Source: Botryllus schlosseri (taxonomy: Eukaryota). From it: DNA of 64,000 nucleotides. Positions 6,711-52,703 of this stretch are shown here, one piece after another. Position numbers and translations under genes: made by a program. Numbering within the stretch: the stretch's first letter is position 1; each line of letters opens with the position of its first letter. The notes under the pieces are model-generated. The model made no database searches, was not told the origin of the DNA, and saw only the letters and a list, made by a program, of their open reading frames with translations. The stretch covers positions 6,140,001 to 6,204,000 of the forward strand of contig CM119372.1 of NCBI GenBank assembly GCA_051294905.1. Direction: 5' to 3'.

Positions 6711-6719
6711 CGAGCTAAC

Positions 6720-13827: not shown

Positions 13828-13930
13828 ATGAAGTTGTTGATTTTGCTATCGATTATTTCCGGCTATTTCGTGCTTCCGTCAACTTCGCAAGCCACATGTA
13901 CCGTATGCGATTGGGGGATAGCTGCGTTGA
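13828..13930 (+). CDS. Gene A exon 1: signal peptide and mature N-terminus (MKLLILLSIISGYFVLPSTSQATCTVCDWGIAAL)
   Basis: Hydrophobic signal peptide with an SQA cleavage-like motif; donor A|gtaagt at 13931; ATG and donor conserved in the paralogue at 52601. Confidence 0.85.
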
Positions 13931-16900: not shown

Positions 16901-19900
16901 CAAAAATTATGGCGGGTTTGTTAGTCTGAAAGGTGATATAGAAAAATGCAAATGTCGATCCAAATTTACTTTACACCCCCTAAAACGTAAATCATTCGTC
17001 ACAGACCCCATAACTCACGCAGGTCGATTTTTTTTGCATGTGAGGAAAGATGCTGACAGCATGTAATTGTAGACAAATTCACGAAGTTTAATCATGGAAT
17101 TATCATGGAGAATTTTTCAAGTATTTTCGGTCCCAGTGATCCATCGGTACCACATCTCCCCTACATATATATATATTAATTGCATGTGGTATATTCGGGG
17201 TCAAATCAAGGTTGTTATGACAGCCATCGGGGAAGGGCTCATACCGTGTGCTTCGAATCAGATGTACGCAATCCGAATTCCCATCTGTGATTGGCAATAC
17301 GGGAAATTATTTGTATTGGGTTTTGTTTTAGTGCTTTGTTTGACTAGTAAATCAACTGGGAATGTCATGGAGATATCTGCCCACCTTGAATTTTACTGCC
17401 CCCAGTTATTAATTTTAACACGGGTGTATTCCAAACAAAGGTCCGCTCCGCAACGATGTTGGCTGTATATGATTTCATAAATGTAGTAGCCTTAACAGCC
17501 CCTAAAGCACGGTAACTGAATATATTTTCGAATATTCGACCAATGGGTATTGTGTCATTATAAACATTTTGCGTTAGCCGACAAGATACATGTTGCGATT
17601 TCGTATGTAGCCACCTCCGACTAAATGTCGAAAGTATGCGACCACCCTCCCCCGACCAAATATACCTACTTGGTTATTTCTGCCACTTGAAGTAGTTTCA
17701 CGTGTCTTAGAAATTACTACTTATACTGTTAATTAAGTAGAACATATAGGAAGTTACTTGTACTACTTGAGTAGCAACGCCCCTCACTTCTACAAACTCT
17801 AGTTCAGTGGTTCTCAACCGGGGGTCAGGGTCCGCGAAGCCTCTAAATTTACAAAATAGTTGATTACCTAATTTATATTTTTCAAATTAGGAAAATCACG
17901 TGGCAGTTTTGCTTCATTACAGTAGAACTCACATCAACGGGATGGCCGTCTGTGATGGAATATCCTGCTGTGTGGACTCATTTTAGTTGCTAATTTGCCA
18001 CTAGCCCACTGATACAAATATTTGGCTGTATAGAGGTGTTTTATTGGGCATTGCGTAAAAAATAAATGGTTGGATTAGTAAAGTTAATCACGCAGACTTC
18101 AAAATGTTCGCAAAAATCCGTTTTCTTCTGTGATACAGGCCTATAACCATTTTCCCTAATAACTTCAAGATGAGCTGCTAGATATAAATTAACAGGCTTG
18201 AAGTTGTTCAATAAAAAAGATTGTGTGTCAATTTTGGCGTCATCATTGTTGCGACCATACCCAAATGTGTCACCGGAAGCGTTATGCCTTATTATTACAT
18301 TCGCCTCCACCTTTCTTTGTCTAAATGGATTTTCAGCACTCGTTGATATCAAATCGAAGGCGCAGATTTTAAAGGCACGACCACGTATTTCGAAAAAATG
18401 CAGTTGCAGCTTTGAAATATTAAAAGTCAACCCAATTTCTACATAAATAGAATGCTGTTATTTTCAAGAAAAGTAATTTTGTTGCTGTTTATTACTAGCC
18501 CACAGTTATCATTTGCACAAGACAGATGACGATTGTACAATAATTGAGCTAAATTTGAACTAAAACTTCGGGGGGGGGAGTCCGCGGGGTTCCGTGACGG
18601 TCCAAAAGGGGTTTGCGAATACAAAAAGGTTGAGAACCACTGCTCAAGTTCATAGTAAAATATTGCGGCAAATCAGAAACCGCCAAAAATGTCAAGCTTT
18701 TTGTAAATAGAACTGGCGTTTAATATTGCAAAACACAAACAAAAAGCCTCAATACCCATTTAAAAACATCTCGGCCTCTGTTCCAGTATGGTATTTGGTG
18801 TTTTTTTTTAATTTGTTGACCATTGTAATTTTACGGATCGAAAAGAGCTTCTGATTGAACGATGATGGATAATCACTGTATTTAAGTTCACCGAAAACTC
18901 ACTCATTCTGTATTACAACAACCCAGGTTTCATGATAGATGATTTCAATGACAATATTTGATCTGTTGCTATTGTACGCTAACCCTGATGTCTCTAACGA
19001 AAGCTGAAATTTGATTAATCTATGAAAATGAGAAAATTTAATACGGAAAAAATCTGACGTGATTGAGACATTATTAGCATAGAATCGAATTCAGCAACCA
19101 TAAATTAGCCTAAAATCAATCATTAAAATTTTTGACGCAATTTTTTTTCGAAATTTGTAAACCAGTGTTATCTCCGTCTCGGTCAACTTTTGCCCCCTTA
19201 ACGTATGATAAATACCCCCTAATAAAGTTATGTTTCATTTTTTTGCTGTTCGATTGTTAGTTTGCTTTGCTGAGAGTCATATTTCAATTCATGGTGTTGT
19301 ATTCTGTTACGAAGGTATCGTATTTTAGCTTATAATTGTATTTTAATATTAGGCAAAAAAGTGTTTTACCCCCTAGCACGTTTATCCCCATATCTTTTTT
19401 CCCCAAGGTAAAAAAAATGACAAAACCCATCATTGAAAAGCTGATAAAATTATCTTTCCAACAGTATATAATACGTCTTTATAAGAATTTTTTCTAGGTT
19501 GACCGGAAATTCTACAGGACTATATACCTTCTGACCACTTATACGCGAATTTAAAGTAGCCCATATGTTTTTAAAACCAGATAATGTCCTATACACAGTA
19601 TCATTCCCAGAACTATATTTTCATCCTTTATTTTGCTATGTTGCAGATGATGGATCTACTGTATTGAAACGTTTCGAAGACGACGAAGCCAGTGCCAACA
19701 TCACACGGGATATTATGATATCGTTTGGTTTAACCGGTAAGGTATCCACCCTTTACTCCCAGAAATCGGTGGACTTGAGCTATTTTTCGAATGGCGTAGC
19801 ACTTCTAGGACAGTATAGATGGATAGGATAGATATTCATAAACAGATTTATAAGAAGCACTCGAATAGTACCAATTGATAATATCTAGTAACGATAACCA

Positions 19901-22900
19901 GTTTTTGTATATGAATAGATGCAAGAACTGGCCAAAAGGTGTTTGTAACATCAGAGTGTAAGCGCACACAGGACGGCATTTTTTATAATAATGGCGTGGC
20001 GTCACGAATATACATCATGACGTTTTGAAATATATGACCTCAAGTTGGGAATTTAGACCCTTAGTGGTCCTCGATATAGTTTTAGGGCAATGGTCGCGAA
20101 CCTATGGCTCTTTGAGGTATAAAATATGGCTCTTTGACAAATTTTGTTCTCAATTTAGAAATATTGCTGAAATTTGTTGGTAAATTTTCATGACGGCCAG
20201 ACTAATTATACTCGTGGCAGCATAAACAATAAATATGTCCTGAATGGTGAAGGCAGCAGAGTATCCAGCGTCAGGGGCTAATACCCCCTTCCAAAATGCC
20301 CTAATTTAAGTTGCTGTTTCCGCCGGTGACTTACACCACTCGGGCATTCGATTTACCCGCCTTAGCGCCTCGAAATCTTGGATTGTACGATACCTTGATT
20401 GATCAGAGAAAATAGCAGACATGGCGACGCTTCCAAGACAATGCAGTTTTCAAATACACATTGTCTTCCTGATCGACGCCGAGAAATAAACTGCCTTGGA
20501 AGTGACACTCACAATTACAAATTCAAATTCAAAACACCGCCACGGCTATCTATGTTCTTGTTTGGTAAGCTTCCTAGCACCGCCGTGAAAATGTAGGTGT
20601 GTAGCGCAACGTGAAGTTACGCCGAATGCTTCAGAAGTCGATCAATAGTTGGATTTTCGGAATCAGCGCGACAATTACATATGATTAATATCAGTGATTA
20701 TAAATTCTAAGCTATTTACGATAAGTTGCGCTATCATAGGTGAGACTTGGCCCGTCTGTGCCTCATCTGTGCCTTACCTATCCTTTCGCACTTTATTTTC
20801 AATTCAATTCAATTTATTGCTAGTAGTGGTATTTTCGAACAATAAATATATAAGCTCGGCAATTTCGGGAATAAAAATCTTCAAAATCTAGCCATCCATA
20901 AACATCGATAGAACATATCATTGAAGGTTTCACAATTTTCCTTCACTCATCCCTGATGGCATGTGAAGCACCGCCTCACTTGCCTCCCCTAACCCACGTC
21001 ACTGACCTATCACACCCTGCAATGTGAAAGGACTGCGTGTGACGGCTCCACCTATACGCATGATGGGCAGAGAAATATGGCGCACAATACGAGTCCCACA
21101 TATTAGTGCTGTCGATACGCCAGGACTTTTCAATTGTGACGCAACATTTGATTGACATGTATGGCTCTTTGGAAGTTACAATTAAAAATATTGGGCCAAT
21201 ATGGCTCTTCGGTCGAAAAAGGTTCCCGACCCCGGCTTTATTGCCAAAGGGCATTACGTTGTCAAGAAACTTCAAAACCAAATTATTCTTTCAGAATAGC
21301 TTTAATAGAGTCATGCTTGATATGATATCCTTCCAGCCACAGGTACGCGCAATCGCCTATAAAACTGCAAGGGGTCCGCGATCAAATAAATTTAAGAATC
21401 CCTGTAGTATAGTGTTATGTTAAAACACTTTGTTAATCCGCAGTTTTTTTTTATACCAGCTGTGACGGCGGACGAAGCTTGCAATACTCACAACGCGTGC
21501 GGGGACAATTCAACTTGCACAAGTCGCACGACCAACTATTTCCTATGTGAATGCGATCGATCTTTCTCCCCAAACAGAACGAGCAACGAGTTCAATTGCG
21601 CGGGTATGTCAATAGAATTGAAGGTTCCCCCTAAAAATGAACAAGGAACTGTTACTTGATTTAAGGCTGAGGGCCTGAGACATATGTAGAGCAGGTTACT
21701 AATCAATTATTTCTTTGATGTAGACACTGACGAATGTGACTTGGCCATGCATAATTGCTCCAACAACGCAACATGCAACAACACAAGTCCTGGTTTCGAT
21801 TGTACGTGTAACACTGGGTACACCGAGAATGGAATTTACTGCGAAGGTAAGCTGAGGTGACATGGGCCATATTTATTATGGCTTTCATGTTTATTAAATA
21901 CACTTTATAGAATCCTCGTCTTTAGGGCACGTCAGGTGGGTCTTTGCTGATATAATAATTACCACAACAATACTAAAAATTACCCAAGTAAACTGGCATA
22001 TGTAGAGTGAATGGTATTATTCCACAAAAAGCCGATGGGAGACTTTAATTCAATCTTCCCCAAACAGAACGAGCGTGAACTTTAATTGCGTGGGTATGTC
22101 AATAGAATTGGGGGTTCCCTCAGATGAACAAGGAACCGTTAATTGATTTGAGACTGAGGGCCTGAGACCTTTGTAGAGCAGGTTACTAATCAATTATTTC
22201 TGTGATGTAGACACTGACGAATGTAACTTGGCCACGCATAATTGCTCCAACAACGGCACATGCTACAACACAAGTCCTGGTTTCGATTGTACGTGTAACA
22301 CTGGGTACACAGGGAACGGAACTTATTGCGAAGGTAAGCTGAGCAGAGCCGGACCATAATTTATCATGGTTTTAGTATCTATTACCTACAGTATACAACA
22401 TCCTCGTATATAATGCAAGTCGGATGAGGATTTACTCATATAATATTATTTGTTGCAATAATACTTAAAATTACTTGTAAACTGGTACATGTGAATGCAC
22501 CTATACATCATCTGGTAATATTCCACAAAATGCCGGTGGAAGATTGTAATTCCTGTTTGATTTTTGTCATATTCATCAAAAGTTAATATCAGATGAATAT
22601 TTGTCAATTCTCAACGCATCGTTTAGGCAGGGCTGTGGAGTCAGTAGAATTACCACCGACTCCGGACATTTTTATTATATCAACTCCAGGTCCGACTCCG
22701 ACTCCACACATTTTTAATATACCGACTCCCACTCCGACTCCAACTGCATTACCAATTTCCTTCGAAAATGATGTGCCACTGTGACGGTTAATGACCATCA
22801 CCATATCATATAACCATTAACAAACGAAAACATACGAATAACCATGGCATGCAAATTGTTTAATTGTGGCACAGAATTATTCATTATGCAATTAACCTGG

Positions 22901-25900
22901 AAGAATGCCTTTCTAAGTATCCTTCCTTTTTATTTTATATGTTTTTAATCATAGACTCTCTGATACCTTGAATCATTCAATGATGACATAGATCCAATCC
23001 TGTAGCATTAAAATGTAGATATAACAATCGAAGTGTAGCTCTTGTGTATGAGTTAGCAACTAATGCGGAGATGTAGCTTTCTAATCTTCTAATTACACAC
23101 TATACTGATTACAAGCACACACAATCTCACTACTAAACATTGGTCAGAAAGGAAATTTAGAATACAGTCTAATGGCTTATGTCTCTCCATGCACTTAGTC
23201 AAGTATTCAAGGTCTAGGACTTGCAGTCTTTCTCAATCATTTGTTCGACCCAAGCAGCTGAGTAACACTGCAAATATTTTTAGTTTTGTCAAGTGGGAAG
23301 CAGCGTTTGGTTCTATTTACATCAATTGAACAATTTTACAAAACCACACGATGCATTCAATCTGTCACAGTATCATGGTATAATTCCAAGTATTTAATCA
23401 ATTTGTGACTGTATCGCGAAGATGCTTATTGCGATTTTCTTTCTTTGTGCCAGTAGTTTTCATCCGGGGTTCCGCGGTCCCCTGGGGGTCTGTGAAGCAC
23501 TTCCAGGGGGTCCGCGAAGCCTCTAAATTTGTAAAATGAATGAAAACCTGATTATTATATTTTTTACTTATGAAAAGCATGAGCCAGTTTCGTTTCATAA
23601 TAGCTAAATCATTGACATAGTCATCTGAGATGAAATATCCGACTGTGCAAACTCATTTTAATTGTCAAATTGCCAATAGCTTGCTGATGCAACATATTGC
23701 TGTTTAGAGTTGTTTTGTTGAGTTTTGTGAAAAAATGAAATGTTGGAGATCGAACAGGGTGACTTCGAAATGTTTGCAAAATATTTTGCGACTTGGAGTT
23801 GTTAGTCTCAGCAAATTCGTAAACTGTCGTTTGACATAGAAATTTCTGAATTTTTTTTCCTAATCCGTCCCAATGAAGGAATTGAATGCTCGCCTCGAAA
23901 TCCATTTTCTCCTGTTATATAACCACTATATAACTTCAATATGAGATGAGACATAGAAATGAATATAGGCTGGGCGTGATATGTTCATTGAAATCTCACA
24001 CCAAAAGCTGTCGTCGGAAGCGTTTCGCGTTAATATTACATTCGCCACCAATAAATCTTTGTGGAAATGAATTTTCGGCACTCATCAATATCAAATCGCT
24101 CAAATCAATATCAAATCAATTCAACTTGCACAAGTCGCACTACCAACTATTTCCTATGTGAATGCGATCTATCTTTCTCCCCAAAGAGAACGAGCAATTG
24201 CTCGGATATGTCAATGCAATTGAAGGCTCCCCCTTGAAATGAATAATGAACTGGTATTTGATTAAGGACTAAGGGCCTGCGTCCTATGTAAAGCAGGTTA
24301 CTAATCAATTATATCTTTGATGTAGACACTGACGAATGTGACTTGACCACGCATAATTGCTCCAACAACGCAACATGCAACAACACAAGTCCGGGTTTCG
24401 ATTGTACGTGTAACACTGGGTACACCGGGAATGGAACTTACTGCGAAGGTAAGCTGAGGTGACATGGGCCATAACTTATTATGGCTATCAAAGTACACTT
24501 TATAGAATCCTCGTCTTTAGGGCACGTCAGGTCAGTCTTTGCAGATATAATAATTACTACGATAATACCAAAAATTGCCCAAGTAAACTGGCACATGTAG
24601 AGTGAATGGGATTATTCCACAAAAAGCCGATGGAAGACGGAATTTCAATCTTCCCCAAACAGAACGAGCGTGAACTTCAATTGCGCGGGTATTTCAATAG
24701 AAGTGTAGGTTCCCCCTCGAAATGAACAAGGAACTGTTAATTTATTTGAGGCTGATAACCTGAGACCTTCGTGGAGCAGGTTACTAATCAATTATATCTG
24801 TGATGTAGACACTGACGAATGTGACTTGGCCACGCATAATTGCTCCAACAACGCCACATGCTACAACACAAGTCCTGGTTTCGATTGTACGTGTAACACT
24901 GGGTACACAGGGAATGGAACTTATTGCGAAGGTAAGCTGAGCAGTAGGGCTCTTCAAAAATTACATTTTTTCTCAAATTGTACTGGCTACTTGATAAAAT
25001 TGTTAGGTTACCTAATTTAAGCCTACACACAAAATTTGGTTCAATTCCAGCCAGTAACCGCTTTGCTACAGGAGAAGTAAGTTTCTATTTATTATATAAA
25101 AATTAATAATAAAAAATTTGAAAATTTTCTATTCACCCCATAAAAGTGTTGGGCTGTCTATAGAAACGATGCTCACCAAATTTGGTTCAATTCCAACCAG
25201 TGGAAGCGGAGTTATTGCCGTCGAAAAATTTGGATTTGAATAAAATAGTATTTACGGTGAGCACAATTATAATAAATAAACACTTTTCAAATGTCGTAGA
25301 AGCCGCGATCCACATGAATTCAATATCGACATAAAATAGGCCACACAGTTGAACAGCGACGCCATCACGTCACCTATTCAGACCTAATGCATTGATATCT
25401 TGGTACATTTGGGGTACTGGGCTTATCGAACGCCTTGAAATCTTAATTAGTGATTGCTGCGTGAGTTGATTGATCAGAGAGAAGCAGACATGGCGGCGCC
25501 TGTATTAGGAATGGTGTGAACGTGAGGTTCACGTTCGCGTTCTGTGTGTGAACCTCGGAGATTTAGAGGTTCGCGTTCACAACAGAACCTTGGTAGGTTC
25601 TGCACTGTGAACGTTTTTGGTAAATTGTAATTTGCACTTCATTATAAGATCTTTGGTTGAAATTTATTGCATTTCAACTGCGGGTCACTCTATGCATGGC
25701 GCTGGCAGCATGAAAAATCAACACAAAACGAGCATGCACCCTGACAACCTTAACAGTTTTACCTGTACTTGCTCTTTTGTTACCAAAAGTTGCCGAAAGC
25801 TCGTGTAACTAATAAAGTTATATTCATACAAGTGGACGTCAAATAGAGTGTGAAAGCTATCAAGGTATTACGTTTATATATCGTCTACCATTGGCGCAAC

Positions 25901-28900
25901 AAAGTATTCAAAAATTTCTCGAAATATCCAGCTTTCCGTTTGTGAATATTTAGTGACTCTCTGCTGTGAGCTTGACCAGCAATCACATAACATCACGAGC
26001 GATATACGTAGTCAGCGAATGATGCTTATTCAACCAATCAATGACATTGAAATCGTTTTTTGATGTAAAAAATCGATCGGGCGTACGGGGTCAATCTCGA
26101 CTTCATATCTTACTGTATCAATAAAACCAAATCCGTGCGATTAAGGTGCTGGCTACTGCTATATAACTTGTTGTTTATTATATCGGTAGCGAGTATAGAA
26201 CCCCGTTTTACACTCTGCTCAATATCAATGTAGCAATACTCAGATTCCGGACACATTGTCTGGTCTGGCTAAGACCGTTAAGGCGTAAGCTTATATTCCC
26301 TGTAAGTCCTCGTCGAAATTGTTGGCAAAGCGATGGAATGTAGTGATTTTTGGAGATCATTATATCCTTTGATAACCGCGGTTGATACATTTAGCGACGT
26401 TTAAAACGCCAATATGTACTTCAGCAATGCTACATTATGTGGCCCGAGTCTTCGCTGGGTATCGTGTACATTAATATAGGCTATCACGTCATTGAAAGAT
26501 AGGGATGGAATTAGCAACATGACGTCACGAGGTTCACGTTCGTGTTCACACAGAACCTTTCAAAAAGGTTCGCGTTCACACGAACCCGAACCTTTCAGAG
26601 GTTCACACCATCCCTAGCCTGTATGACAATGCTGTTCTCAAATTCACCTTGTCTTCGTCATTACCGGCGAGAAATGGCTTTGAAGTGACGTTGCTGTCGT
26701 TAAATACATTCATTAAATACGATTTACACCTTGTATATGTGGCTAAATGGGCGAATTCATCGATTCAGCAATCCGGCCCGCCAAGTACATAATTTTCCTA
26801 TATCGGGCCCGCCGGCTGGAGAAGTTGCCCGCCCCTGCTATACAGCGTCCTCGTATATAATGCAAGTCTGATGAGGATTTACTCATATAATATTATTTAT
26901 TGTAATAATACTTAGAATTACTTGTAAACTGGTACATGTGAATGCGCCTATTCATCATCTGGTAATATTCCACAAAATGCCGGTGGAAGATTGTAATTCC
27001 TGTTTGATTTTTGTCATATTCATCAAAAGTTAATATCAGATGAATATTTGTCAATTCTCAACGCATCGTTTAGGCAGGGCTGTGGGGTCGGTAGAATTTA
27101 CCACCGACTCCGGACATCTTCATTATATCAACTGCAGGTCCGACTCCGACTCCACACATTTAATATACCGACTCCGACTCCGATTGCATTACCAATTTCC
27201 TTCGAAAATGATGTGCCACAGTGACGATTAATGACCATCCCCATATCATATAACCATTAAACATACGCAAACATACGATTAACCATGGCATGCAAAATTG
27301 TTTCATTGGGGCACAGAATTATTCATTATGCAATTAACCTGGAAGAATGCCTTTCTAAATATCCTTCCTTTTTATTTTATATGTTTTTATACCATAGACT
27401 CTCTGATACCTTAATAAGTTTGAATCATTCAATGATGACATAGATCCAATCCTGTATCATTAAAATGTAGATAAAACAATCGAAGTGTAGCTCTTGTGTA
27501 TGAGTCAGCAACTAATACAGAGATGTAGCTTACTAATTTTCTCATTACACACTATACTGATTACAATCACACACAATCTCATTACTAGAAAACATAGGTC
27601 AAAAACGAAATTTAGAAAACAGTCAAATAGCTTAAGTCCCTTCATGCACTTAGTCAAGTATTCAAGGTATAGGACTTGCACTCTTTCTCAATCATTTGTT
27701 CGACCTAAGCAGCTGAGCTACACTGCAAATATTTTTAATTTTGTCAAGTGGGAAGCAGCGTTTGGTTCTATTTACATCAATTGAACAATTTTGCAAAATC
27801 ACACGATGTATTCAATCTGTCACAGTATCATGGTATAATTCCAAATATTTAATCAATTTGTGACTGCATCGCGAGGATGCTTATTGCGATTTTCTTCCTT
27901 TGTGTCAGTGGTTCTCAACCGGGGTTCCGCGGACCCTGGGGTCCGTGAAGCATTTCTAGGGGGTCCGCGAAGCCTCTAAATTTGTAAAATGAATGACAAC
28001 CTGATTATTATATTTTTTTAAAAATATGTTTGTCAAATTGCCAATAGCTTGCTGATGCAACATGTTGCTGTTTAGAGTTGTTTTGTTGGGTTTTGTGAAA
28101 AAAACGAAATGTTGGAGATCGAACAGGGTGACTTCGAAATGTTTGCAAAACATTTTGCGATGTGGAGTTGTCAGTCTCAGCAAATTAGTCAACTGTCGTT
28201 TGAAATAGAAATTTCTGAATTTTTTTCCGAATCCGTTCCAATGAAGGAATTGAATGCTCGCCTCGAAATCCATTTTCTCCTGTTATAAAGTCACTATATA
28301 ACTTCAATATGAGATGAGAGATAGAAATGAATATAGGCTGGACGTGATATGTTCATTGAAATCTCACACCAAAAGCTGTCGTCGGAAGCGTTTCGCGTTA
28401 ATATTACATTCGCCACCAATATATCTTTGTGGAAATGAATTTTCGGCACTCATCAATATCAAATCGATCAAATCAATATCAAATCAATTCAACTTGCACA
28501 AGTCGCACTACCAACTATTTCCTATGTGAATGCGATCTATCTTTCTCCCCAAAGAGAACGAGCAATGAGTTCAATTGCTCGGGTATGTCAATAGAATTGA
28601 AGGTTCCCCCTCGAAATGAATAAGGAACTGGTATATGATTTAAGACTGAGGGCCTGCGACCTATGTAAAGCAGGTTACTAATCAATTATATCTTTGATGT
28701 AGACACTGACGAATGTGACTTGGCCACGCATAATTGCTCCAACAACGCAACATGCAACAACACAAGTCCGGGTTTCGATTGTACGTGTAACACTGGGTAC
28801 ACCGGGGATGGAACTTACTGCGAAGGTAAGCCGTGGTGACATGGGCCATATTTATTATAGAATCCTTGTCTTTAGGACACGTCAGGTGAGTCCTTGCTGA

Positions 28901-31900
28901 CATAATAATTACTACAATAATACTAAAAATTACCCAAGTAAACTGGCAAATGTAGAGTGAATGGTAATATTCCACAAAAAGCCGATGGAAGACTGTAATT
29001 CAATCTTCCCCAAACAGAACGATCGTGAAGTTCAATTGCGCGGGTATGTCATTGGAATTGTAGGTTCCCCCTCAAAATTAACAAGGAAGTGTTAATTGAT
29101 TTCAGGCTGAGGGCCTGAAACCTTCATAGAGCAGGTTACTAATCAATTATATCTGTGATGTATACTCGACACCATATAGGACACTATGCTAGTACAGCAA
29201 AGCCCGAAAGATTAGATCTAAATAGAGGATACAATAATAAATCCCCGGTTAACAAATATCGATGTCGCAGTCTTAATTAGAATGCGTATTTACTGACGCC
29301 TCCCCAGTTACACCGATAAGTTGAATTGGTGATTCCGATGTCATTTCTGTAATCGCTATTGTTTGATATGAAGACTAGGCCAATAGTTTTGAGCAAACAC
29401 TAGACTTGGTTATTTACATAATAATGTATATACAGAAGATCGATTCTTTTTCAAGAAACTTCAAGGTAACGTCCGGTGTTTCACTGAACTCCGTTGATAG
29501 GATTTCGATGTCATAAATGTAGACGGCATTGTTTGATTCAAATATATCGAGCTTTCTCAAGCAACTCGTATATTTACTTTGAGGTCTTGATTGGCCTCAT
29601 ATTCTTATCTCATCACAGCCTTGTTAAAGATGCTTGAGATATCGTATATTTCGTCTCCATGCACACCATGAAAGTTGTGAAGCTCGATACAAAATGCTAT
29701 TAAGCATCAAGTACTCAGCGATACAATTAGGGTTGCATATAAAACAAAATTTATTTCAAAGCAAACTTGTTTAAACATGGACCTTGTTTAAAACATTCAT
29801 TTTATTGTTTTTTCTTTCTTTTCACCATTACGCCACGAATATGCAATTATGACATCAAAACGGATTATCATTTTTCTATGGCTCCTTATGAATTACAAAT
29901 GAAAATACAGGGAAATATCAGACAAATTTGACTATGACATCAAACCGATTTTTGCAATAGGCCCATAGCTGGGGTGTGCACATCATTAATGATTAAACCA
30001 TGTTGTCGTATAGTATAATCAATACACTCGACTTGGGATTGCACAAATACATAATACCTACAGAATATCGATTATTTGTCATGAAATACGGCGAATATTA
30101 CATCCGTTAAACCAGGGCTCGGCAACCATTTATTGATCTGCGGAGTGGTTTCAAAATGAATTTTCATGGCGGACCGGTCTTCAAAAAACAATAACAATTG
30201 ACACTGAAAAAATTGATTGCAGCTCATAGACTTATGATGTAACTATAAGGTATGTGCCGTAAGGCAGTAACATACATGTTTTCATTAAAGGGAGTTACTG
30301 GATTTCTTGTTAATGTTCATCACTAACCTTGACTGTTATGAAAAACTATATGAACTTTTCGCTGACCGGTATGGAAATCAGAATGGAACCATATTTTGAG
30401 AACAATTGGTGGTGTAATGTAAAGTAAATTGACCAGATTTAATCTGTTCACCCCTTACGGACTGGGTTGAGTCCACGTCGTTGTTTAGTTATGATTGACT
30501 GAGTGTTTCAACATTTTCGCCCTCTATCTGCACATTAGTGCAATCGCCCTGTGGTATTTTCAGACCCTGTCTCTCCAAACCGTCCCGAGGGGCATATGGT
30601 TCACTTTGAGTAGCATCGGATTAGACTTTGATGTCTACTCTATAATTGATGGAAAGGGTCCAATTTTATGAATTTTTAAAATGAGATATAAATTTCAGAA
30701 ATATTTGGTGGACCGACAGTAAAGTAGCGACGGACCGCCGGTTGAGAAAAACTGAGTTAAATTAAAAGCAGTAGAAGAGACAGACCGCTCGGAATTACCG
30801 ACGGAATGCGTACCCTATCGCACATGCCATGATGCGTCAAAACTGGATGTTGGGGCGGCGGCTCGAAAGCTCGTGTACAATATAAATTATAATTAGAAAG
30901 TAGAATAATATGTACTATGTTGAGAGCTACCAGGTTCTTATCTGATTTCAAACTATATCTATTTACGAGAATGTCTCAGCACAATGATTCGCGTATACTC
31001 TAATTTGCATCGAGTATAAATTTTAATGATTCGAGTCGCTAGAGTTAATTTATCGACGACAGATTTTATCTTCCACCGTGGAAGGCTGTGAACCCCAATT
31101 GGTCGTATCATAGCATACGAATCCCATAGACAATAGGCATAGTACAAAGCTCCGCACGTTTGTGGAACAGACTTGTATAAACTACTGGATTTTCAAAAAG
31201 CGCAACGAGAACTAGAATTAGAACTACCCGATTTTCAAAATCCGCAACTAGAACTAGAACTAACCAATTTTAAAAACCCGCAACTAGAATAAGAACTACA
31301 ACTACTCAATTTTCAAAATCAGCAACTAGAACTTGAGGTAGAACTACCGTTAGTTACATGACCACCAACTAACTAAATGGGTAGTTTGTACAAGTCTGCC
31401 CGACTAGCCTTACTGGTAGTCATGCAGATTACAACACATATGCTATGCACAGTGCACACATGTGGTAGACTTTTTGTTTTGTGACTAACTGAAAATTAGG
31501 GTTTCCCGAAGGCTTGTAGATTAGCCTAGGGCAGACCTGAGCACTTTACGGCCAGCGAGCTAAATAATAGAAGAAAAATAATATCTGTCCTAAAAGACCC
31601 TACTTCATGTTGATTCACCTTCGAGCTTTTTTCATTTTGAAAACTTTTGTTTCACTTTTTGCAAGAAACATGGTTATAATAATGCGCAACAAATCATTTA
31701 GCGTGTCATGAAAAATCATCTTGCATGCCACTGTTGGCACCGTGCCAGGGGTAGCCGATCCTTGGCGTAATGATGGATTAATTTAAGTCGGGATTTTGAC
31801 ACAAGCACACAGTCATTCGACTGAGGCTGCAAGAAGACGAATTCGGAAAACCTGGCAGCGTAATTACCAAAACAATAGGACGATTTTACCAAGCTACACG

Positions 31901-34900: not shown

Positions 34901-37900
34901 CAATCGTACGCCGGGTACCTCCGCTTTGGTTGCCTATCACCTGGTCGTAACTCGTAACCACCAGCTCAGTGGTCGTAACACACCAGGATCGTGTACGAAA
35001 CACTTTCGGACGGCCTATCGATTTGCGTAATCTCTAACTCTACCATGAAATCATAACGCATGCCACTAAGGATGACCTGATAATTGATTCGTGGCATAGG
35101 GACGATTCTTAGTTCACGTACATTATGTAAAATAATCCTTTGATTAAAAAAAAATGAATAAAACATTTGTTACCACACTTCAAGTCACGGCTCACCGGCA
35201 AACCTCTCGCGGCACCTACGTTAAAATCACTGTTGTCGGGAAATTCATGTGACCATCATATTAAAGTTACTTTTTTACGTTGGAAAACGCCATTGTGACG
35301 TCATGTTGATAAAAGTCGCTCGCAGCCCTTGCCCCACCACCCGATATTGTCACGAGCCGCCACTGTTCTGACCCCAAAAAGCCACCCGCAGGCTACGTCA
35401 CTGTTAGCAATCATGGCTCTGAGCAAGCAATGACTGCACAAACATCATTCAACAGAACACCGGCATTTCATTTCGCCCAAAACGACGACACGTGTATTCT
35501 AGTTGTTCGGCAACTAATAATTTCTCAAATGTGCAACTAGAACTAGAACTACTGAATTTTCAAAATCTGCAACTACAACTAGAACTAGAACCACTCAATT
35601 TTCAAAATCCGCAACTAGAACTAGAACTATAACTATTCAATTCTCAAAGTCAGCAACTAGAATTAGAACTAGAACTACTCAAAAACCGTTAGTTATAGTT
35701 GACTATCAACTAAATAAATGGTTAGTTTGTACAATTCTGTTGTGGAAATGACATATCTGTAAGGTTGTGATCAATCCACGGCATTGTCACAAAGTTGAAT
35801 GAAACAGTTTTGGTCGAAGAAATAACCAAATAATATTTAACTTGATGCAGGACAGGCATTATATTCTCTGCGGTCGCACAACCGGTACATGTTTGACATT
35901 TTCACGTCATTTGTATTAATAAGTGGTACTCGAATACTCATTCTGACTCGAAGCCCACTTCTCGATTCAGAATCTAATAACTCCCGTACTCGATATTGCC
36001 CGGCCCTGATAATGAGTAGGTATTTGATGGCAATGCTATCGGCTGCGTCCGATCTGGACTGTAAATGAGTGATAAGTGGCGGAAATTATCACTATTCTCA
36101 CTTTCCACCACAGATAGTGCTGAGACTGCCACAAAGATATCGAATACTTATAATCATTCCACAATATTTCGTAATTCTGCCGCTTCTACTGCGAGACCAT
36201 TACGTATGTTTCACTGTGACTCCTACACTAAGAATTTTATTCATAATTGCTAGTTACCTGTATAGTTCACCGATCCATCCTTTACGAAATGCTTTGCCCC
36301 ATACATAGGCTATATACGCCATTATTTAGTGTGGGACGTCCATCCAATAAGTTGTGGAAATTGTTACGATCCTCACTTTCAGCCACGGATAGTTCTGAGA
36401 CTGCCACAAAAACATCGGATACTTATGATTAGGGATGGTGTGAACCTCTGAAAGGTTCAGGTTCGTGTGAACGCGAACCTTTTTGAAAGGTTCTGTGTGA
36501 ACACGAACGTGAACTTCATGACGTCACGTGACGTCATATTGCTAATTCCAACTCTATCCTTCAATGAAATGATAGCCTATATTAATGTACACGATACCTG
36601 GTGACGACTCAGGCAACATAACATCATAATGCTGAAGTATATATTGACGTTTTAAACGTCGCCAAATATATCAACTGGGGCAATCAAATGATATAATAAT
36701 AGCATAAAATCAATATCTTCCAACAATTTCGACGAGGGCTTACCAGGGAATCTAAGGAAAGGAAAGTGAATTTTTGTCTTTGATGTTTTTGCAGCATATA
36801 CACCGAATCATGATATACATACACACGATCTGCGCATATGCATACCATGATCACATGATGTGCATATGCCGCCGGGCAAGGAAGATGCAGATATAGCCTT
36901 GTAGCAGTGTTGGGATGGCTCGAGTCATGACTTGACTCCAATCAGACTCGAATCACCTTTTTCGTATGACAGACCGGAAAATGTATTCGGCATCCGAGTA
37001 TTGCTACATTTATATTGATCATAGGGTGAACCGGGTAGCTATGCTTGCTACTGATATTACCCCATTTACAAGATATAGAGCAATAGCCAACACCTCAATT
37101 GCACCGATTTGGTTTTAATGGTTTTACATGAAGTCAAGATTGACCCCGTGCGCCTGCGAGATTTTTTACATCAGAAAACGATATCAATCTCATTGATTGG
37201 TCGACTAAGCATCATTCGCTGACTACATAGCTTATTTCTCTCGTGATGTTTTGTGATTGCGGGTCAAGCTCGCAGCAGAGAGTCACTAGATATTTACAAA
37301 CGGAATGCTGGATCTTTCGAGCAAACTTTTGCAACAAAGCAAGTAAAACTTTTGAGATTGTCAAGGTGCATGCTCGTTTAGTGTTGACTATTTTATGCTG
37401 CCAGCGCCATGCATGGAGTGGCCTGCGGTTGAAATGCAATAAATTTGAACCAACGATGTTATAATGAAGTGAAAATTGTTATATATGAAAAAGGTTCACA
37501 GTGCAGAACCTACCAAGGTTCTGTTGTGAACGCGAACCTCTAAATTTCCGAGGTTCACACACAGAACGCGAACGTGAACCTCGCGTTCACACCATCCCTA
37601 CTTATGATCCTTCCACAACATTCCTTAGTTCTGCCGCTTCTACTGCGACACCTACAGGTATGTTCCACTGAGAGTACACTAAGATTTTTTTAATAATTGT
37701 TAATTACCTGTCTAGTTCACCATTGCATCTTTTACGAAATGCGTTGTCCCATACATATATAGCATGCGCCACTCTTTGGTGATGGACGTCCATCCCATAA
37801 GTTGCGGAAATTTTTACTGTCCTCACTTTCAGCCGCAGATAGTTCGGAGACTGCCACAAAAACATCGAATACTTATGATCCTTCCACAACATTCCGTAGT

Positions 37901-40900
37901 TCTGCCGCTTCTACTGAGACACCCACAGGTATTTTCTACTGCGACTACGCTATAATTTTTATTCATAATAGCTAATTACATGTCTAGTTCACCAATAGGT
38001 CTTTACCTAAATGTTTTACAACACCCAATAAATTGGATATACGCCAATATTTGGTGAGGTGTCTCCATTCAATAAATGGAGGAAATTATTACTATTCTCA
38101 CTTTCAGCCACAGACAGTGCCGTGACTGCCACAAAAACATCGAATAATTATGATACTTCCACAACATTCCGTAGTTTTACCGCTTCTACTGCGACACCAA
38201 CAGGTATATGTTCCAATGTGACAACTTTATAATTTTATTCGTAATTGACAGTTACGTGATGCTTAGTTCACCGATGCTTACTTAGTTCACCGATGGGTTT
38301 TTGCGATTTTTTTTGCAACACCCCATAGTCTACATATATATGCCACTATTCAGTGAGGGGTCCCCAATGTCCGTCAAATAAGTGGCGGAAATTATTACTG
38401 TTCTCACTTTTCTGCCATAGATAGGTCAGACACTGAGGTTGCTACTAAAACATCGAATACTTATGATTCTTCCTCATCATTCCGTAGTTCTGCCGCTTCC
38501 ACTACACCAAGAGGTATGTTCCGCTGCTACTACGCTATACTTTTATTCATAATTGGTAATTAGCCTACTAGGGATGGAGCGAAGGGCGAACCCCTGAAAG
38601 TCTCTGGTTCTATAGTTAGGCAATTTAACGGCCGTTTTTGACCAGTTTGCCGAGCGCTGAATTTGATAAAACGTGTATCAATAATTGTTAATTACCTGTC
38701 TAGTTCACCATTGCATCTTTTACGAAATGCGTTGTCCCATACATTTATAGCATACGCCAGTCTTTGGTAAAGGACGTCCATCCCATTAGTTGCGGAAAAT
38801 ATTACTATCCTCGCTTTCAGCCGCAGATAGTTCTGAGACTGCCACAAAAACATCGAATACTTATGATGCTACCACAACATTCCGTAGTTCTGCCGCTTCT
38901 ACTGAGACACCCGCAGGTATGTTCTATGTGTTCTACTGCGACTACGCTATAATTTTATTCATAATTGCTAATTAGCATACTAGGGATGGTGCGAAGGGCG
39001 AACCCCTGAAAGGCTCTGGTTCTATAGTTAGGCAATTTAACGGCCATTCTTTACCAGGTTGCCGAGCGCTGAATTTGATATAACGGGTATCAATGGAAAG
39101 CTGCTGCTGTACTGATTACGAAAATATAAATTCGATTCCGCTAATCGACCCAGAACCAGAGTGGGATCAATTACAATATTTCAGTTAAATTACAATTACA
39201 ATTACTGCTGAACATGTATGTAATTGCAATTACAATTACAATTACAAATTATGTTAAACATGTAATTGATTCGGTAGAGAGGTGTTCTTTGACAGCCGTA
39301 GCGACGTAATTAGCAACGATCTCAAGCTATTCATGTTTCACTCATGATACGTAGAATACCCTTTAATTAAAAAAAGTCGAACGTATTCGAACTATTCCTA
39401 ATCATCAGTAGACTACTTAACGCTAAAAACACCGAAAAATGTTTCAAGCGACTGTTAACAGCCAAAAGTTTGAGCGACTAACAGCGGTTAGGTTACAGGA
39501 CAGTCCATGAAATGTAATCAAACGATAAGGCTACTGAGAGCTGAGTGAGGATAATGAAATGTAATTGGCAATGGGTCAGCGATGAGGATGATACCGTTAA
39601 GATGTGTAAAATTAAAATAAATGCAAAAGGAAAGAACCTCCTGATAACTACGAATTACAACATTTTGGTTCGCATTTACATTTTCACCTGCTCGGAAAGT
39701 ATTAAATTGCATTTGATGAACATGACGGTGCGAAAATTTCCGGCCCCAGTAAATTTGGTCAAGATTGGAGGTAAGATTGGGATAACATCTCAACAAGTGC
39801 GTGATCAAGTTTGATGAAACCTTGGTTGGAAACTTGAATTTCTTTTTGAAATTGTTGCACCAAGCCTCGGTACTGGTCAGAGATTTAAAATGAAGCTCTG
39901 ACCGTGGTGTAGGAAATGGTTCAGCACAGGCTTCAGAAGAGTTTATTTGTTGTTCATTCATTTTTGAAATTTAAGATTTAGTTTACCCCACTCATTCTCT
40001 AACTTTTTTAGACACGCCCCCTTTATGACAGTGCAATATTTCGTGCCCCACTTATCGTCAGATCACACAATGAAACCAGAATGTTAGCAATGCTTACAGA
40101 TAGTTTGATGGTACGGAAGGTTAAAACTGTTGCTGAGAGAATTCTCTAATATGAAATTCGGACTATACACAGAGCAATAGCTATGAAATAGAGGTGAATC
40201 GCGCTAAGCGCAGAAAAAAAATTAAGTTTACCGGAGCCTCGCGCCACCCTTCAGATGCATTCACGCCGCCCAAAGGGGGCACGCTCCCCATTTTGAGAAC
40301 CACTATGGTTGAGCCTATAATGTAATACCACGAATACCACAAGCAACAACGACGCATTGTGTGATGATTAGGGCCATTTAAAGTCATTAAAGTCATATTT
40401 TTTTCTACGCATCAGTAAGTCGTGAAATCAATTTTAACGCAAAAATTGCATCCATATGGGGTATATTAAGAAAGTTATAAAGTCATATAAAGTCATATTT
40501 TCCTGGTTAGGTCATATTTGAGTTATAAAGTCATATTGTTGTATACTTTAAATAAAAAGTGCCAATTGAAGCAATTACGCACTACGAAAGTAAGGCAATT
40601 TCTGATTGAACGAAGGCAAACTGTAAGGTTAGCCTACATAACATTACAGTCGCAGACCTATGAGGTCACACATTGCATTATGAGGTCACACATTGCATTG
40701 TGTTGCTACACAATCTGTTTTACTTCTGTGCACTGAAGTGGGACGTAATTTCAAGTTCAGAGACTTCCACAAGTGAAAGAAATAGTCAACGCATGGGGAG
40801 CTGAAGGAGTTATTGTAAAGAGCGTCAAAGATTCAGTGAACGATCTAAAGTTGACAAGTCAGTTAACAGAAATATGCCTCCACTACAACAATATTTTAAA

Positions 40901-41749
40901 CTTGATACTGAAAATGGAAAGTTGTACGTACACTATCAAAGAGGCTCATGCTGATCTAAATGCCCTCGATTTCGGAAAAGATCCGCTTGAGCTCAAAAAA
41001 TACATTAAGAAGCGATTGGACAAAAACAATGTGTAACAAATTATGGAGCTACAAATACAAGACATTTCACCAGCGCTGTATGCAAAACTGCAGAAGTGTC
41101 AACAGACATCAGCGTCTGTGGAGGCTCATTTTCCTTACCAAAGTCATTTTTACGTCCAAATGGTAACTTTAAAGACTCCAACATTCCACACACTACATGA
41201 AACTGTACTACAAAAGTGGATTAAAATAAAAATGGAGGTGTATTACTGTTATGTTGTTGATGTTTTACTCGTCAGTTCCATGAGTGACGTTGGTTACATG
41301 TAAAAATACACGATTTTCGCATAAAGTCATATAAAGTCATATTTTCCCAAAAATAAAGTCATATAATTGATTTTTTAAGGTCATATAAAAATGGCCCTAG
41401 TGATGATTCTCGATTTCATCCGTTTTGTCATATCTTATGGTGGGTTGCAAAATGAAATGATGATAGAAACTTATATCGCAGCAATGTCAAATCCATATAT
41501 TGCCATGAAATATCACTGGCGCAGTTGACCAAAAACGACTATTGAAATACAAAATTCAATTTCATTGCAGACACGCCAACGCAAGATATCACTCCACCGA
41601 TTATGGCGGCCGTGCTGGCATTCGTCATCATCGTTCTATTAGCCCTTCTCGTCTGTGTGCTGGTCAGAAAGCGCAGATCGTCAAAGAATAAGCACGACTT
41701 GTCCCACGTCAACATGCACGCTATAGGAGTCCAACCGCCCGCGCATTAA
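13828..41749 (+). CDS. Gene A (spliced, 14 exons): type-I membrane protein with signal peptide, EGF, 5 cbEGF, 5 Ser/Thr mucin-like repeats, TM helix and short cytoplasmic tail; about 533 aa
   Basis: Join 13828-13930, 19647-19736, 21460-21603, 21724-21846, 22211-22333, 24326-24448, 24809-24931, 28703-28825, 36114-36203, 37833-37928, 38108-38203, 38421-38513, 38821-38916, 41571-41749. Total 1602 nt, all GT-AG, all introns phase 1, one open frame from ATG to TAA. Linking the EGF block to the mucin/TM block is inferred from phase, order and coherent architecture. Confidence 0.78.
15100..15530. mobile_element. hAT-like MITE nested in the Academ-like element
   Basis: TIR TAGGGTTGCATTTAAAAC; TSD CTTTAGAC/CTTTGGAC. 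Confidence 0.85.
16202..17161. mobile_element. MITE with TA TSD (Tc1/mariner-type), nested in the Academ-like element
   Basis: Perfect 25-bp TIR GGGGAGATGTGGTACCGATGGATCA, flanked by TA on both sides. Confidence 0.8.
17805..18642. mobile_element. hAT (Charlie-like) MITE
   Basis: TIR CAGTGGTTCTCAACC; TSD CTCTAGTT/CTCAAGTT; relatives at 23451, 27906 and 59450-60308. Confidence 0.85.
19647..19736 (+). CDS. Gene A exon 2 (NDGSTVLKRFEDDEASANITRDIMISFGLT)
   Basis: Pyrimidine tract plus ttgcag acceptor, G|gtaagg donor, 90 nt, phase 1-1, open; conserved without indels at 53499-53588. Confidence 0.75.
20088..21235. mobile_element. hAT-like MITE in intron 2, shared with gene B (53949-55251)
   Basis: Degenerate TIRs with ATGGCTCTT subterminal repeats; same position in both paralogues; a third family member at 45407-48555. 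Confidence 0.7.
21460..21603 (+). CDS. Gene A exon 3: EGF-like domain (AVTADEACNTHNACGDNSTCTSRTTNYFLCECDRSFSPNRTSNEFNCA)
   Basis: Six cysteines in EGF spacing including CxC; poly-T ataccag acceptor; G|gtatgt donor; 144 nt, phase 1-1. Confidence 0.9.
21724..21846 (+). CDS. Gene A cbEGF exon 1 (DTDECDLAMHNCSNNATCNNTSPGFDCTCNTGYTENGIYCE)
   Basis: Calcium-binding EGF consensus D-x-D-E-C and C-x-N-x4-F-x-C; tag acceptor, G|gtaagc donor; 123 nt, phase 1-1. Confidence 0.93.
22211..22333 (+). CDS. Gene A cbEGF exon 2 (DTDECNLATHNCSNNGTCYNTSPGFDCTCNTGYTGNGTYCE)
   Basis: cbEGF consensus; intact splice sites; 123 nt. Confidence 0.93.
24117..24205 (+). pseudogene. 5'-truncated copy of exon 3 (pseudo-exon)
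   Basis: Starts mid-exon at CAATTCAACTTGC with no acceptor, has a 9-nt deletion near its end, and the donor is mutated (ggatatg). Confidence 0.85.
24326..24448 (+). CDS. Gene A cbEGF exon 3 (DTDECDLTTHNCSNNATCNNTSPGFDCTCNTGYTGNGTYCE)
   Basis: cbEGF consensus; intact splice sites; 123 nt. Confidence 0.9.
24809..24931 (+). CDS. Gene A cbEGF exon 4 (DTDECDLATHNCSNNATCYNTSPGFDCTCNTGYTGNGTYCE)
   Basis: cbEGF consensus; intact splice sites; 123 nt; overlaps ORF-track 24826..25020. Confidence 0.9.
25506..26616. mobile_element. hAT-like MITE, GTGAAC-repeat family
   Basis: TIR TAGG(G/A)ATGGTGTGAAC; perfect TSD GCCTGTAT. Confidence 0.9.
28485..28582 (+). pseudogene. Second 5'-truncated copy of exon 3
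   Basis: Same junction as at 24117; donor gtatgt retained; acceptor and first two cysteines missing. Confidence 0.85.
28703..28825 (+). CDS. Gene A cbEGF exon 5 (DTDECDLATHNCSNNATCNNTSPGFDCTCNTGYTGDGTYCE)
   Basis: cbEGF consensus; intact splice sites; 123 nt. Confidence 0.9.
32410..35365. mobile_element. hAT-like non-autonomous element nested in the composite unit
   Basis: TIR CAGTGGCGGCTCGT; perfect TSD TTCTGACC. Confidence 0.9.
33173..33689. mobile_element. hAT-like MITE (TCGAGT-repeat family), innermost in the nest
   Basis: TIR TAGGGCTGGGCA; perfect TSD GTGGTAAT. Confidence 0.9.
36114..36203 (+). CDS. Gene A Ser/Thr-rich repeat exon A (DSAETATKISNTYNHSTIFRNSAASTARPL)
   Basis: Diverged copy of the 96-nt repeat exon. 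The first AG is lost but the second (cacag) is in frame; donor C|gtatgt; 90 nt. Confidence 0.6.
36383..37657 (+). pseudogene. Ser/Thr repeat exon B, split by a 1171-bp MITE (halves 36383-36429 and 37609-37657)
   Basis: Acceptor tttcag and donor G|gtatgt are intact. The insertion has TSD CTTATGAT and its first bases (TAG) form an in-frame stop. Confidence 0.85.
36430..37600. mobile_element. hAT-like MITE, GTGAAC-repeat family, inserted in mucin exon B
   Basis: TIR TAGGGATGGTGTGAAC; perfect TSD CTTATGAT; opposite orientation to 25506-26616. Confidence 0.92.
37833..37928 (+). CDS. Gene A Ser/Thr-rich repeat exon C (AADSSETATKTSNTYDPSTTFRSSAASTETPT)
   Basis: ctttcag acceptor, G|gtattt donor; 96 nt, phase 1-1; about half S/T. 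Confidence 0.8.
38108..38203 (+). CDS. Gene A Ser/Thr-rich repeat exon D (ATDSAVTATKTSNNYDTSTTFRSFTASTATPT)
   Basis: ctttcag acceptor, G|gtatat donor; 96 nt, open. Confidence 0.8.
38421..38513 (+). CDS. Gene A Ser/Thr-rich repeat exon E (DRSDTEVATKTSNTYDSSSSFRSSAASTTPR)
   Basis: ccatag acceptor, G|gtatgt donor; 93 nt; indels relative to the sister exons preserve frame. Confidence 0.75.
38821..38916 (+). CDS. Gene A Ser/Thr-rich repeat exon F (AADSSETATKTSNTYDATTTFRSSAASTETPA)
   Basis: ctttcag acceptor, G|gtatgt donor; 96 nt; matches ORF-track 38790..38975. Confidence 0.8.
40369..41399 (+). mobile_element. Internally deleted hAT element with a transposase C-terminal remnant
   Basis: TIR TAGGGCCATTT; perfect TSD GTGATGAT; AAGTCATAT subterminal repeats. 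40773-41135 reads through one stop to CQQTSASVEAHF, resembling the hAT TSAxVERxFS dimerisation motif. Confidence 0.8.
41571..41749 (+). CDS. Gene A terminal exon: TM helix and cytoplasmic tail (DTPTQDITPPIMAAVLAFVIIVLLALLVCVLVRKRRSSKNKHDLSHVNMHAIGVQPPAH*)
   Basis: tttcattgcag acceptor in phase 1; 22-residue hydrophobic helix followed by an RKRR stop-transfer; TAA at 41747-41749. Confidence 0.88.
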
Positions 41750-52600: not shown

Positions 52601-52703
52601 ATGAAGTTGTTGATTTTGCTAGCGATTATTTCCGGCTATTTCGTGGTTCCGTCAACTTCGCAAGCCACATGTACCGTATGCGACTGGGGAATGATTGGGT
52701 TGA
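52601..52703 (+). CDS. Gene B exon 1 (MKLLILLAIISGYFVVPSTSQATCTVCDWGMIGL)
   Basis: Colinear with 13828-13930; donor A|gtaagt. Confidence 0.83.

What the first reader, a model, noticed from the sequence alone, without database searches (positions are those of the whole stretch)
13828..41749. Hidden modular cell-surface receptor gene in which every internal exon is a phase-1 cassette (EGF array plus mucin stalk)
Seen: 14 short exons that the ORF track shows only as fragments join into signal peptide, about 42-aa unique tip, EGF, 5 cbEGF, 5 Ser/Thr repeats, TM and a 27-aa tail. All introns are phase 1, and both module types have been tandemly amplified recently. Known: phase-1 symmetry is normal for EGF exons; EGF-on-mucin-stalk designs occur in CD93/thrombomodulin; EGF-number splicing occurs in CD97/EMR2. 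I do not recognise this tip or this lectin-less combination. Inference: rod and stalk length could vary by skipping or unequal crossover without frameshift, as in variable adhesion, immune or allorecognition receptors. The tail has no tyrosine (no ITIM/ITAM), only a basic RKRR cluster after a TM cysteine.
Basis: partly seen in the sequence, partly recalled or inferred. Interest (0 to 1): 0.8.

Follow-up and report, generated by a model that had tools for sequence, protein, structure and literature searches.

The report
Tandem EGF-rod mucin-stalk surface protein genes
This is an intact 14-exon animal gene, one of at least three close relatives that share their front end but differ in the middle, predicted to encode a sugar-coated cell-surface protein that likely acts in adhesion or as a spacer; the design is familiar and length-changing splicing is untested.

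Summary
The 14-exon model is real: all 13 introns are GT-AG and phase 1, and the frame is open for 527 aa. All-phase-1 is the rule for extracellular modules, and ten exons descend from two founders, so the symmetry is unsurprising. Spliced contigs from two studies show a third relative (about 90-94% identical) with the same exon 2-EGF-cbEGF junctions. One contig carries a single cbEGF, then 3,245 nt unlike the window's Ser/Thr exons, then the same membrane exon. So the EGF head and the membrane tail belong to one gene type, and EGF number (5, at least 2, 1) varies between copies. No read joins this copy's own Ser/Thr exons, and skipping was not seen. No relative of the tip, first EGF or tail was found. 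Best reading: a lineage-specific, heavily glycosylated EGF/mucin adhesion or spacer protein, working like CD93, HEG or Eater but belonging to none of those families. An immune role is possible, not shown.

The parts
13828..13930 (+). Gene 1 exon 1: signal peptide (about 22 aa) plus 12 aa of tip with a CxxC motif
   Evidence: 91% to paralog region
19647..19736 (+). Gene 1 exon 2: rest of the tip (30 aa), with a KR dibasic site
   Evidence: the paralogous exon is spliced to the EGF exon in contigs of X3, X4, X15
21460..21603 (+). Gene 1 exon 3: divergent six-Cys EGF-like module
   Evidence: no Pfam cut-off passed; Atlas lead 0.88 to an EGF cluster
21724..21846 (+). cbEGF 1 (type A)
   Evidence: Pfam EGF_CA 3.6e-08
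22211..22333 (+). cbEGF 2 (type B)
24326..24448 (+). cbEGF 3 (type A), behind a 5'-truncated remnant of exon 3 at about 24117-24208
24809..24931 (+). cbEGF 4 (type B)
28703..28825 (+). cbEGF 5 (type A), behind a remnant of exon 3 at about 28485-28582
   Evidence: Pfam EGF_CA 1e-08; best match of X3 contig, 7 differences in 124
29127..29165 (+). Remnant acceptor region of a sixth cbEGF; the exon itself is absent
   Evidence: 92% over 39 nt
36114..36203 (+). Ser/Thr exon 1 (most diverged, weaker donor)
36393..37657 (+). Broken Ser/Thr exon 2, split by a 1171-bp element (36430-37600; 16-bp terminal inverted repeats, 8-bp target duplication); the acceptor shared by the five intact copies is lost
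37839..37928 (+). Ser/Thr exon 3 (alternative in-frame acceptor 6 nt upstream)
38114..38203 (+). Ser/Thr exon 4 (alternative in-frame acceptor 6 nt upstream)
38421..38513 (+). Ser/Thr exon 5 (6-nt insertion and 3-nt deletion, both in frame)
38827..38916 (+). Ser/Thr exon 6 (alternative in-frame acceptor 6 nt upstream)
41571..41749 (+). Last coding exon: membrane helix with one Cys, RKRR, 27-aa Tyr-free tail, stop
   Evidence: matched by X3 contig, 14 differences in 141
41750..42245 (+). Likely 3' untranslated region; a relative's contig ends in poly(A) at 42245
   Evidence: X15 record 4 and loose end; X3 and X4 pieces 41714-42177 with 7 differences in 464
52601..52703 (+). Gene 2 (tandem paralog) exon 1
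53499..53588 (+). Gene 2 exon 2 (tip)
57431..57574 (+). Gene 2 exon 3 (EGF-like)
57695..57817 (+). Gene 2 cbEGF type A
58178..58300 (+). Gene 2 cbEGF type B; no further exon found before the window ends

Best explanation
The window holds an intact 14-exon gene and the front half of a tandem copy, members of a young family of at least three genes that are predicted to encode heavily glycosylated single-pass surface proteins, likely used for cell adhesion or as a glycan-coated spacer. Shown: exon structure, open frame, module order, paralogs, and splicing of a relative's head exons onto the same membrane exon. Inferred: the signal peptide sends the chain to the surface; calcium stiffens the cbEGF rod; N-glycans (3-4 usable sites per cbEGF), O-fucose sites (6 of 6 EGFs) and O-glycans on the 151-aa, 47% Ser/Thr stalk extend and shield it; the tip and first EGF, or the glycans, contact a partner; the RKRR cluster would tie the tail to actin through ERM proteins rather than signal through tyrosines. 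Length changed at the DNA level, by tandem copying of exon-plus-intron units, and copies are also lost (one Ser/Thr exon, one cbEGF). Regulated skipping is permitted by the phases but untested.
For: Gene model. Motifs: O-fucose and Asn-hydroxylation consensus (consensus recalled), sequons 3,3,4,3,3 per cbEGF against 0-3 in five database proteins. Purifying selection on EGF exons. Duplication units with breakpoints inside exon 3. Contigs: exon 1-2 joint in X3 and X4; exon 2-EGF joint in X3, X4, X15; EGF-cbEGF joint in X3, X4, X15; cbEGF to membrane exon in X3 (3 of 4 runs, 2 of 3 studies). CD93 and thrombomodulin bind ERM proteins through RKR and RKK (PMC6852297 passages). Eater, an EGF-repeat single-pass protein whose tail has no identified domain, mediates adhesion (PMC4359741 passages).
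Against: No listed joint links this copy's own cbEGF, Ser/Thr and membrane exons (tables show only the best 15 joints, 263 and 373 not shown). The one bridging contig has a different 3,245-nt middle. Ser/Thr exons show pN/pS of about 1.3 and only 4% Pro. A basic cluster after a membrane helix is general and does not prove ERM binding. No ligand, tissue or protein evidence.
Confidence: 0.5

Rival explanations
1. A variable recognition receptor or ligand (phagocytic, Eater-like, or allorecognition): the tip is the diversifying binding site and stalk length tunes reach; signalling would need a partner chain.
For: Between genes 1 and 2 the tip differs at 9 of 42 residues against 12 of 130 in the EGFs (one-sided Fisher p 0.038), in two patches; the relative's contig fails to align over the last 40 nt of exon 1 at 80%. 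In Botryllus fester and FcoR, most genotype-specific splicing is of exons between the membrane and the head (PMC12065747 passage).
Against: Tip pN is not above pS or intron divergence (exon 2: 0.074 vs 0.053; exon 1 part: 0.142 vs 0.255; introns 0.07-0.12), so relaxed constraint explains it. One pair of genes, one post-hoc test. No tyrosine motif, Ig, sushi, lectin, NIM or CCxGY feature.
Confidence: 0.2
2. Gene 1 is a rearranged, slowly decaying offshoot of a larger relative (about 1,290 aa if its middle is all coding): it lost the long middle, and its repeats grew with little selection.
For: The relative has one cbEGF and a 3,237-nt in-frame-length middle. Gene 1 has a transposon-split exon, a lost cbEGF, exon-3 remnants and Ser/Thr exons at pN/pS about 1.3.
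Against: 14 of 14 model exons are open with canonical sites; cbEGF exons are under purifying selection, including copies made after the doubling; a 3' piece 98.5% identical to gene 1 is present in two runs that hold spliced contigs.
Confidence: 0.2
3. In this copy the EGF block and the Ser/Thr-membrane block are not one transcript; the head makes a secreted protein, or splices straight to the membrane exon.
For: 7.3-kb transposon-rich gap; no direct joint for this copy; gene 2 shows no Ser/Thr or membrane exon in the 5.7 kb left in the window.
Against: The Ser/Thr block has no signal exon of its own, the phases fit, and a relative joins the same head to the same membrane exon.
Confidence: 0.06
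4. An egg-coat or gamete-recognition protein of the HrVC70/VC120 kind, with the relative's unknown middle holding further EGFs and a ZP module.
For: Ascidian egg-coat proteins are O-fucosylated EGF arrays whose repeat number changes between species (PMC9265791 passages); the unknown middle is long enough.
Against: No ZP domain in gene 1 (8 exon products scanned; no further convincing exon); the middle is unread.
Confidence: 0.04

Closest known systems
CTLD group 14: CD93, thrombomodulin, CD248, CLEC14A (PMC6852297, passages)
   Same: EGF repeats, then a mucin-like region, one membrane helix and a tail; basic juxtamembrane motif (RKR in CD93) that binds moesin.
   Different: No C-type lectin or sushi domain; a 42-aa tip instead; every module on its own exon.
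HEG (heart of glass) and chicken Muc13 (PMC1552070, abstract and passages)
   Same: Mucin, EGF and membrane domains without a lectin (HEG); one mucin repeat per exon, with length control by splicing already proposed (Muc13).
   Different: In Muc13 the mucin lies next to the signal peptide, here below the EGFs; no SEA domain in gene 1; no sequence relationship found.
Drosophila Eater / Nimrod family (PMC4359741, PMC4073527, passages)
   Same: EGF-like array, one membrane helix, tail without identified domains; adhesion and uptake roles.
   Different: Repeats here are calcium-binding EGFs, not NIM repeats; CxxC but no CCxGY motif; 6 repeats, not 21-32.
EGF-TM7 receptors CD97 / EMR2 (PMC4419612, passages)
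   Same: EGF array on a mucin stalk; EGF number varied by splicing there.
   Different: Single-pass, no seven-helix domain; splicing variation not seen here.
Ascidian egg-coat HrVC70/VC120, HaVC80, CiVC57 (PMC9265791, passages)
   Same: Signal peptide plus EGF array with O-fucose sites and repeat-number change by duplication.
   Different: No ZP domain in gene 1; mucin stalk instead.
Botryllus fester co-receptors (PMC12065747, passages)
   Same: Type I membrane family in tandem copies; stalk exons can be spliced.
   Different: No Ig or sushi domain, no ITIM, hemITAM or any tyrosine in the tail.

Membership tests
Calcium-binding EGF module (Pfam PF07645) | D-x-D-E-C start, six Cys, C-x-[DN]-x4-[FY]-x-C-x-C | tested here: met
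   Above cut-off in 2 of 2 exons scanned; consensus in 5 of 5
EGF-like module (exon 3) | Profile or fold match to EGF | tested here: inconclusive
   Six Cys in EGF spacing; no Pfam cut-off; 4 weak hits, two to multi-EGF fish proteins; Atlas 0.88; model pLDDT 60, fold search best Z 3.8
CTLD group 14 (CD93 family) | N-terminal C-type lectin domain | tested here: not met
   Only 42 aa lie before the first EGF; contigs join exon 1 to 2 to EGF directly; no lectin hit
CTLD group 14 (CD93 family) | EGF repeats, mucin-like region, single helix | tested here: met
Nimrod / Eater | NIM repeats behind a CCxGY motif | tested here: not met
   Sequence shows cbEGF repeats and CxxC only against the definition in PMC4073527
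EGF-TM7 | Seven-helix domain | tested here: not met
   One hydrophobic helix besides the signal peptide, then a stop after 27 aa
Muc13 / membrane mucins | SEA domain | tested here: not met
   None in gene 1; the relative's middle could not be read
Muc13 / membrane mucins | Ser/Thr-rich repeats that are O-glycosylated | tested here: inconclusive
   47% Ser+Thr, 4% Pro over 151 aa; glycosylation not testable
Ascidian VC70/VC120 egg-coat proteins | C-terminal ZP module | tested here: not met
   None in gene 1; not testable for the relative's middle
Fester co-receptors | Ig and sushi domains; ITIM, hemITAM or core tyrosine motif | tested here: not met
   0 Tyr in tail; no Ig or sushi exon
Splice-variable receptors (CD97/EMR2 type) | Isoforms that differ in module number from one gene | tested here: inconclusive
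   No skipping joint attributable to gene 1 among the listed joints; tables truncated

The most novel reading that the evidence does not exclude
A family of recognition receptors in which a shared signal-tip-EGF head and a shared membrane tail are kept while the whole middle is exchanged (five cbEGF plus a 150-aa mucin stalk in one gene, one cbEGF plus about 1,080 unrelated residues in another), with patchy change at the tip, so that each gene or isoform displays a different binding tip at a different height, as stalk splicing does in Botryllus fester receptors.
Probability: 0.15. Interest if true: 0.6.

Novelty: new variant of a known kind. Interest (0 to 1): 0.3.

Why it matters
As it stands it is an undescribed, lineage-specific EGF/mucin surface protein family and a clean record of exon-unit birth and loss in one 45-kb stretch. 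Each ingredient has a precedent. It would matter more if the tip proved hypervariable in populations, or if the exchanged middle and stalk splicing tuned recognition, since that would add a tyrosine-free receptor family to the short list of invertebrate chordate recognition systems.

Tried and rejected
No whole genome is held for this window, so other family loci could not be read. Run search: no RNA holder on record among 24 rows. Raw-read runs X23 and X21 (about 6% and 3% read) gave next to no cover on the exon bins and no listed splice joint; X9 gave no cover on the Ser/Thr bin or on gene 2's first exon. X1 crosses an intron-exon border, so it holds unspliced sequence and was not counted. 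Contig depths cannot rank the copies by expression. A depth sum for the Ser/Thr bin fits exon-only cover at 9-10, like the near-identical 3' piece, but this is only a hint. Relatives: exon 3 none, membrane exon none of 79 candidates, cbEGF 5 generic multi-EGF proteins of 7 candidates, best identity 71% to a Ciona intestinalis protein; 4 weak hits among 1.84 billion representatives; none of these 9 proteins matches the tip, stalk or tail. Metagenome scans 0 of 596 and 0 of 595 candidates. PDB sequences none. Atlas for the tip: best 0.89, bacterial, noise level. Structure of exon 3: pLDDT 60, fold search uninformative. All searches were single exons, so blanks are weak. Earlier findings by place, sequence and relatives: nothing. 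Rejected: that gene 1's extra cbEGF units came from gene 2 (distances star-like, 7-9%; gene 1's long introns are closer to each other). Rejected: hidden extra exons; a scan recovering 11 of 12 known internal exons gave only five unconvincing candidates in gene 1's introns and none after gene 2 (the first scan had no positive control). Rejected: positive selection on the tip (pN not above pS). Paper searches (listings only) showed no description of this family; the species is unknown to me, and supplements were not read.
Full report
OBSERVATION. I read the whole window and fixed exon borders by script. Order: signal peptide, 42-aa tip, one divergent six-Cys module, five 41-aa calcium-binding EGFs, five 30-31-aa Ser/Thr repeats (47% Ser+Thr, 4% Pro), one membrane helix with a Cys, and a 27-aa tail that starts RKRR and has no tyrosine. 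Two cbEGF exons scanned pass Pfam's EGF_CA and EGF_3 cut-offs; the signal, tip and two Ser/Thr exons hit nothing, exon 3 and the membrane exon only below cut-off (8 exon products).

ARE THE EXONS REAL? cbEGF exons diverge less than their flanks (0.051 vs 0.161) with pN/pS 0.038/0.107 over 21 non-independent pairs. The Ser/Thr exons are less clear: 0.144 vs 0.190, and pN/pS 0.14/0.11 for 4 of the 5 (the 93-nt exon was left out). In their favour, both exon indels are in frame while most intron indels are not, and a rough neutral simulation keeps five copies intact with P 0.007-0.03. The acceptor shared by the five intact copies is lost in the one copy split by a transposon.

(1) A tandem paralog starts at 52601: signal, tip, EGF-like and two cbEGF exons, 194 codons without a stop, canonical sites, about 7-12% diverged in promoter and introns. 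No further exon was found before the window ends. (2) A sixth Ser/Thr unit is split by a 1171-bp element with terminal inverted repeats and an 8-bp target duplication (hAT-like by recalled rule). (3) A sixth cbEGF survives only as an acceptor remnant at 29127-29165, and pieces of exon 3 precede the later cbEGFs, marking duplication breakpoints inside exon 3. History: one cbEGF doubled into types A and B (17-19% apart; 49 sites group A with A, 1 against), the gene then duplicated (about 7%), and gene 1 copied an A-B-intron unit twice more (4-9%).

RNA EVIDENCE. The run search listed 24 runs, none on record as an RNA holder. A 3,930-nt contig of run X3 joins exon 1 to exon 2 to the EGF exon to one cbEGF without introns, runs on for 3,245 nt that match nothing laid (90% threshold on 21850-41849, 80% on 37830-57829), and ends in the membrane exon. 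X4 (same study) shows the same head joints; X15 (another study) shows the exon 2-EGF and EGF-cbEGF joints and a 3' piece ending in poly(A) at 42245. The contig differs from the window by 11 in 117, 7-8 in 124 and 14 in 141 letters, so it is a third relative; X3 and X4 also hold a piece with only 7 differences in 464 from gene 1's 3' end, which argues for a paralog rather than an allele. Less the 8-nt offset, the middle is 3,237 nt, a whole 1,079 codons (one in three by chance), which would give about 1,290 aa. I could not read it; Ser/Thr repeats more than 20% diverged are not excluded. The Ser/Thr bin has some cover in X3, X4 and X15.

RELATIVES. Exon-by-exon searches found only generic EGF proteins; details are under Tried and rejected. 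The best cbEGF identity was 71% to a Ciona intestinalis protein. That, and unchecked notes on this genome, point to a sea squirt; I did not establish the species.

IS THE PHASE PATTERN SURPRISING? No. Patthy's review states that the modules used to build extracellular proteins are class 1-1 and that phase-1 introns are in excess near signal-peptide cleavage sites (PMC8001218, passages). Ten of the twelve internal exons come from two founders, so at most six introns are independent (inference). One mucin repeat per exon, with length control by splicing proposed, was described for chicken Muc13, and HEG has mucin, EGF and membrane domains without SEA (PMC1552070, abstract and passages). EGF-number splicing is typical of EGF-TM7 receptors (PMC4419612, passages).

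MECHANISM. Most likely a type I surface glycoprotein for adhesion or spacing (0.5). Each cbEGF has 3-4 N-glycan sites not blocked by proline, against 0-3 in five database proteins, all six EGFs fit the O-fucose consensus (consensus recalled), and the stalk is Ser/Thr-rich, so the rod would be densely sugar-coated. CD93 and thrombomodulin use RKR and RKK to bind ERM proteins (PMC6852297, passages), and Eater, with a tail lacking identified domains, mediates adhesion and uptake (PMC4359741 and PMC12999507, passages). All steps beyond the gene model are inferred. The recognition reading (0.2) has one hint: the tip differs between genes 1 and 2 at 9 of 42 residues against 12 of 130 in the EGFs (p 0.038), and the relative fails to align at the end of exon 1; but pN does not exceed pS. 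A decaying offshoot of the larger relative (0.2), a split gene (0.06) and an egg-coat role (0.04; PMC9265791, passages) remain.

COMPARISON AND VERDICT. It is built like CD93, HEG or Eater but fails the defining feature of each family tested (lectin domain, SEA, NIM/CCxGY per PMC4073527 passages, seven helices, ZP, Ig and ITIM). Three paper searches (listings only) showed no description of it; supplements were not read. New variant of a known kind. The most interesting open point is not the intron phase but the unread 3.2-kb middle of the relative. Interest 0.3.

Noticed in passing
window 36430-37600; related copies at about 25500-26620 and 49675-51110: A family of roughly 1.1-1.4-kb elements with the same terminal inverted repeat; one copy sits inside a Ser/Thr exon with an 8-bp target duplication, and offers a weak in-frame acceptor at 37565 that could rescue the exon's second half.
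   Followed up: partly
window 37833, 38108, 38821: Three Ser/Thr exons have a second in-frame AG six bases upstream, which would add two residues.
   Followed up: no
window 19649-19735: The tip has a KR dibasic site, kept in both window genes, between the CxxC motif and the first EGF; it could be a processing site that releases the N-terminal peptide (inference).
   Followed up: no
window 1307-2533 and 6017-7655: Arrays of a 43-bp unit in two blocks of opposite orientation (85-88% identical), forming a large inverted structure about 6.3 kb wide.
   Followed up: no
window 40740-41200 and 45000-45400: Short open stretches that look like transposase remnants, with matches in several runs at 40740-41200; identity not tested.
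   Followed up: no
window 31189-31348 and 35512-35682: 36-42-bp repeats that translate as Thr/Ser/Arg-rich text inside the long intron but lie in multi-copy sequence and lack splice sites; not part of the stalk.
   Followed up: partly
   Followed up: no
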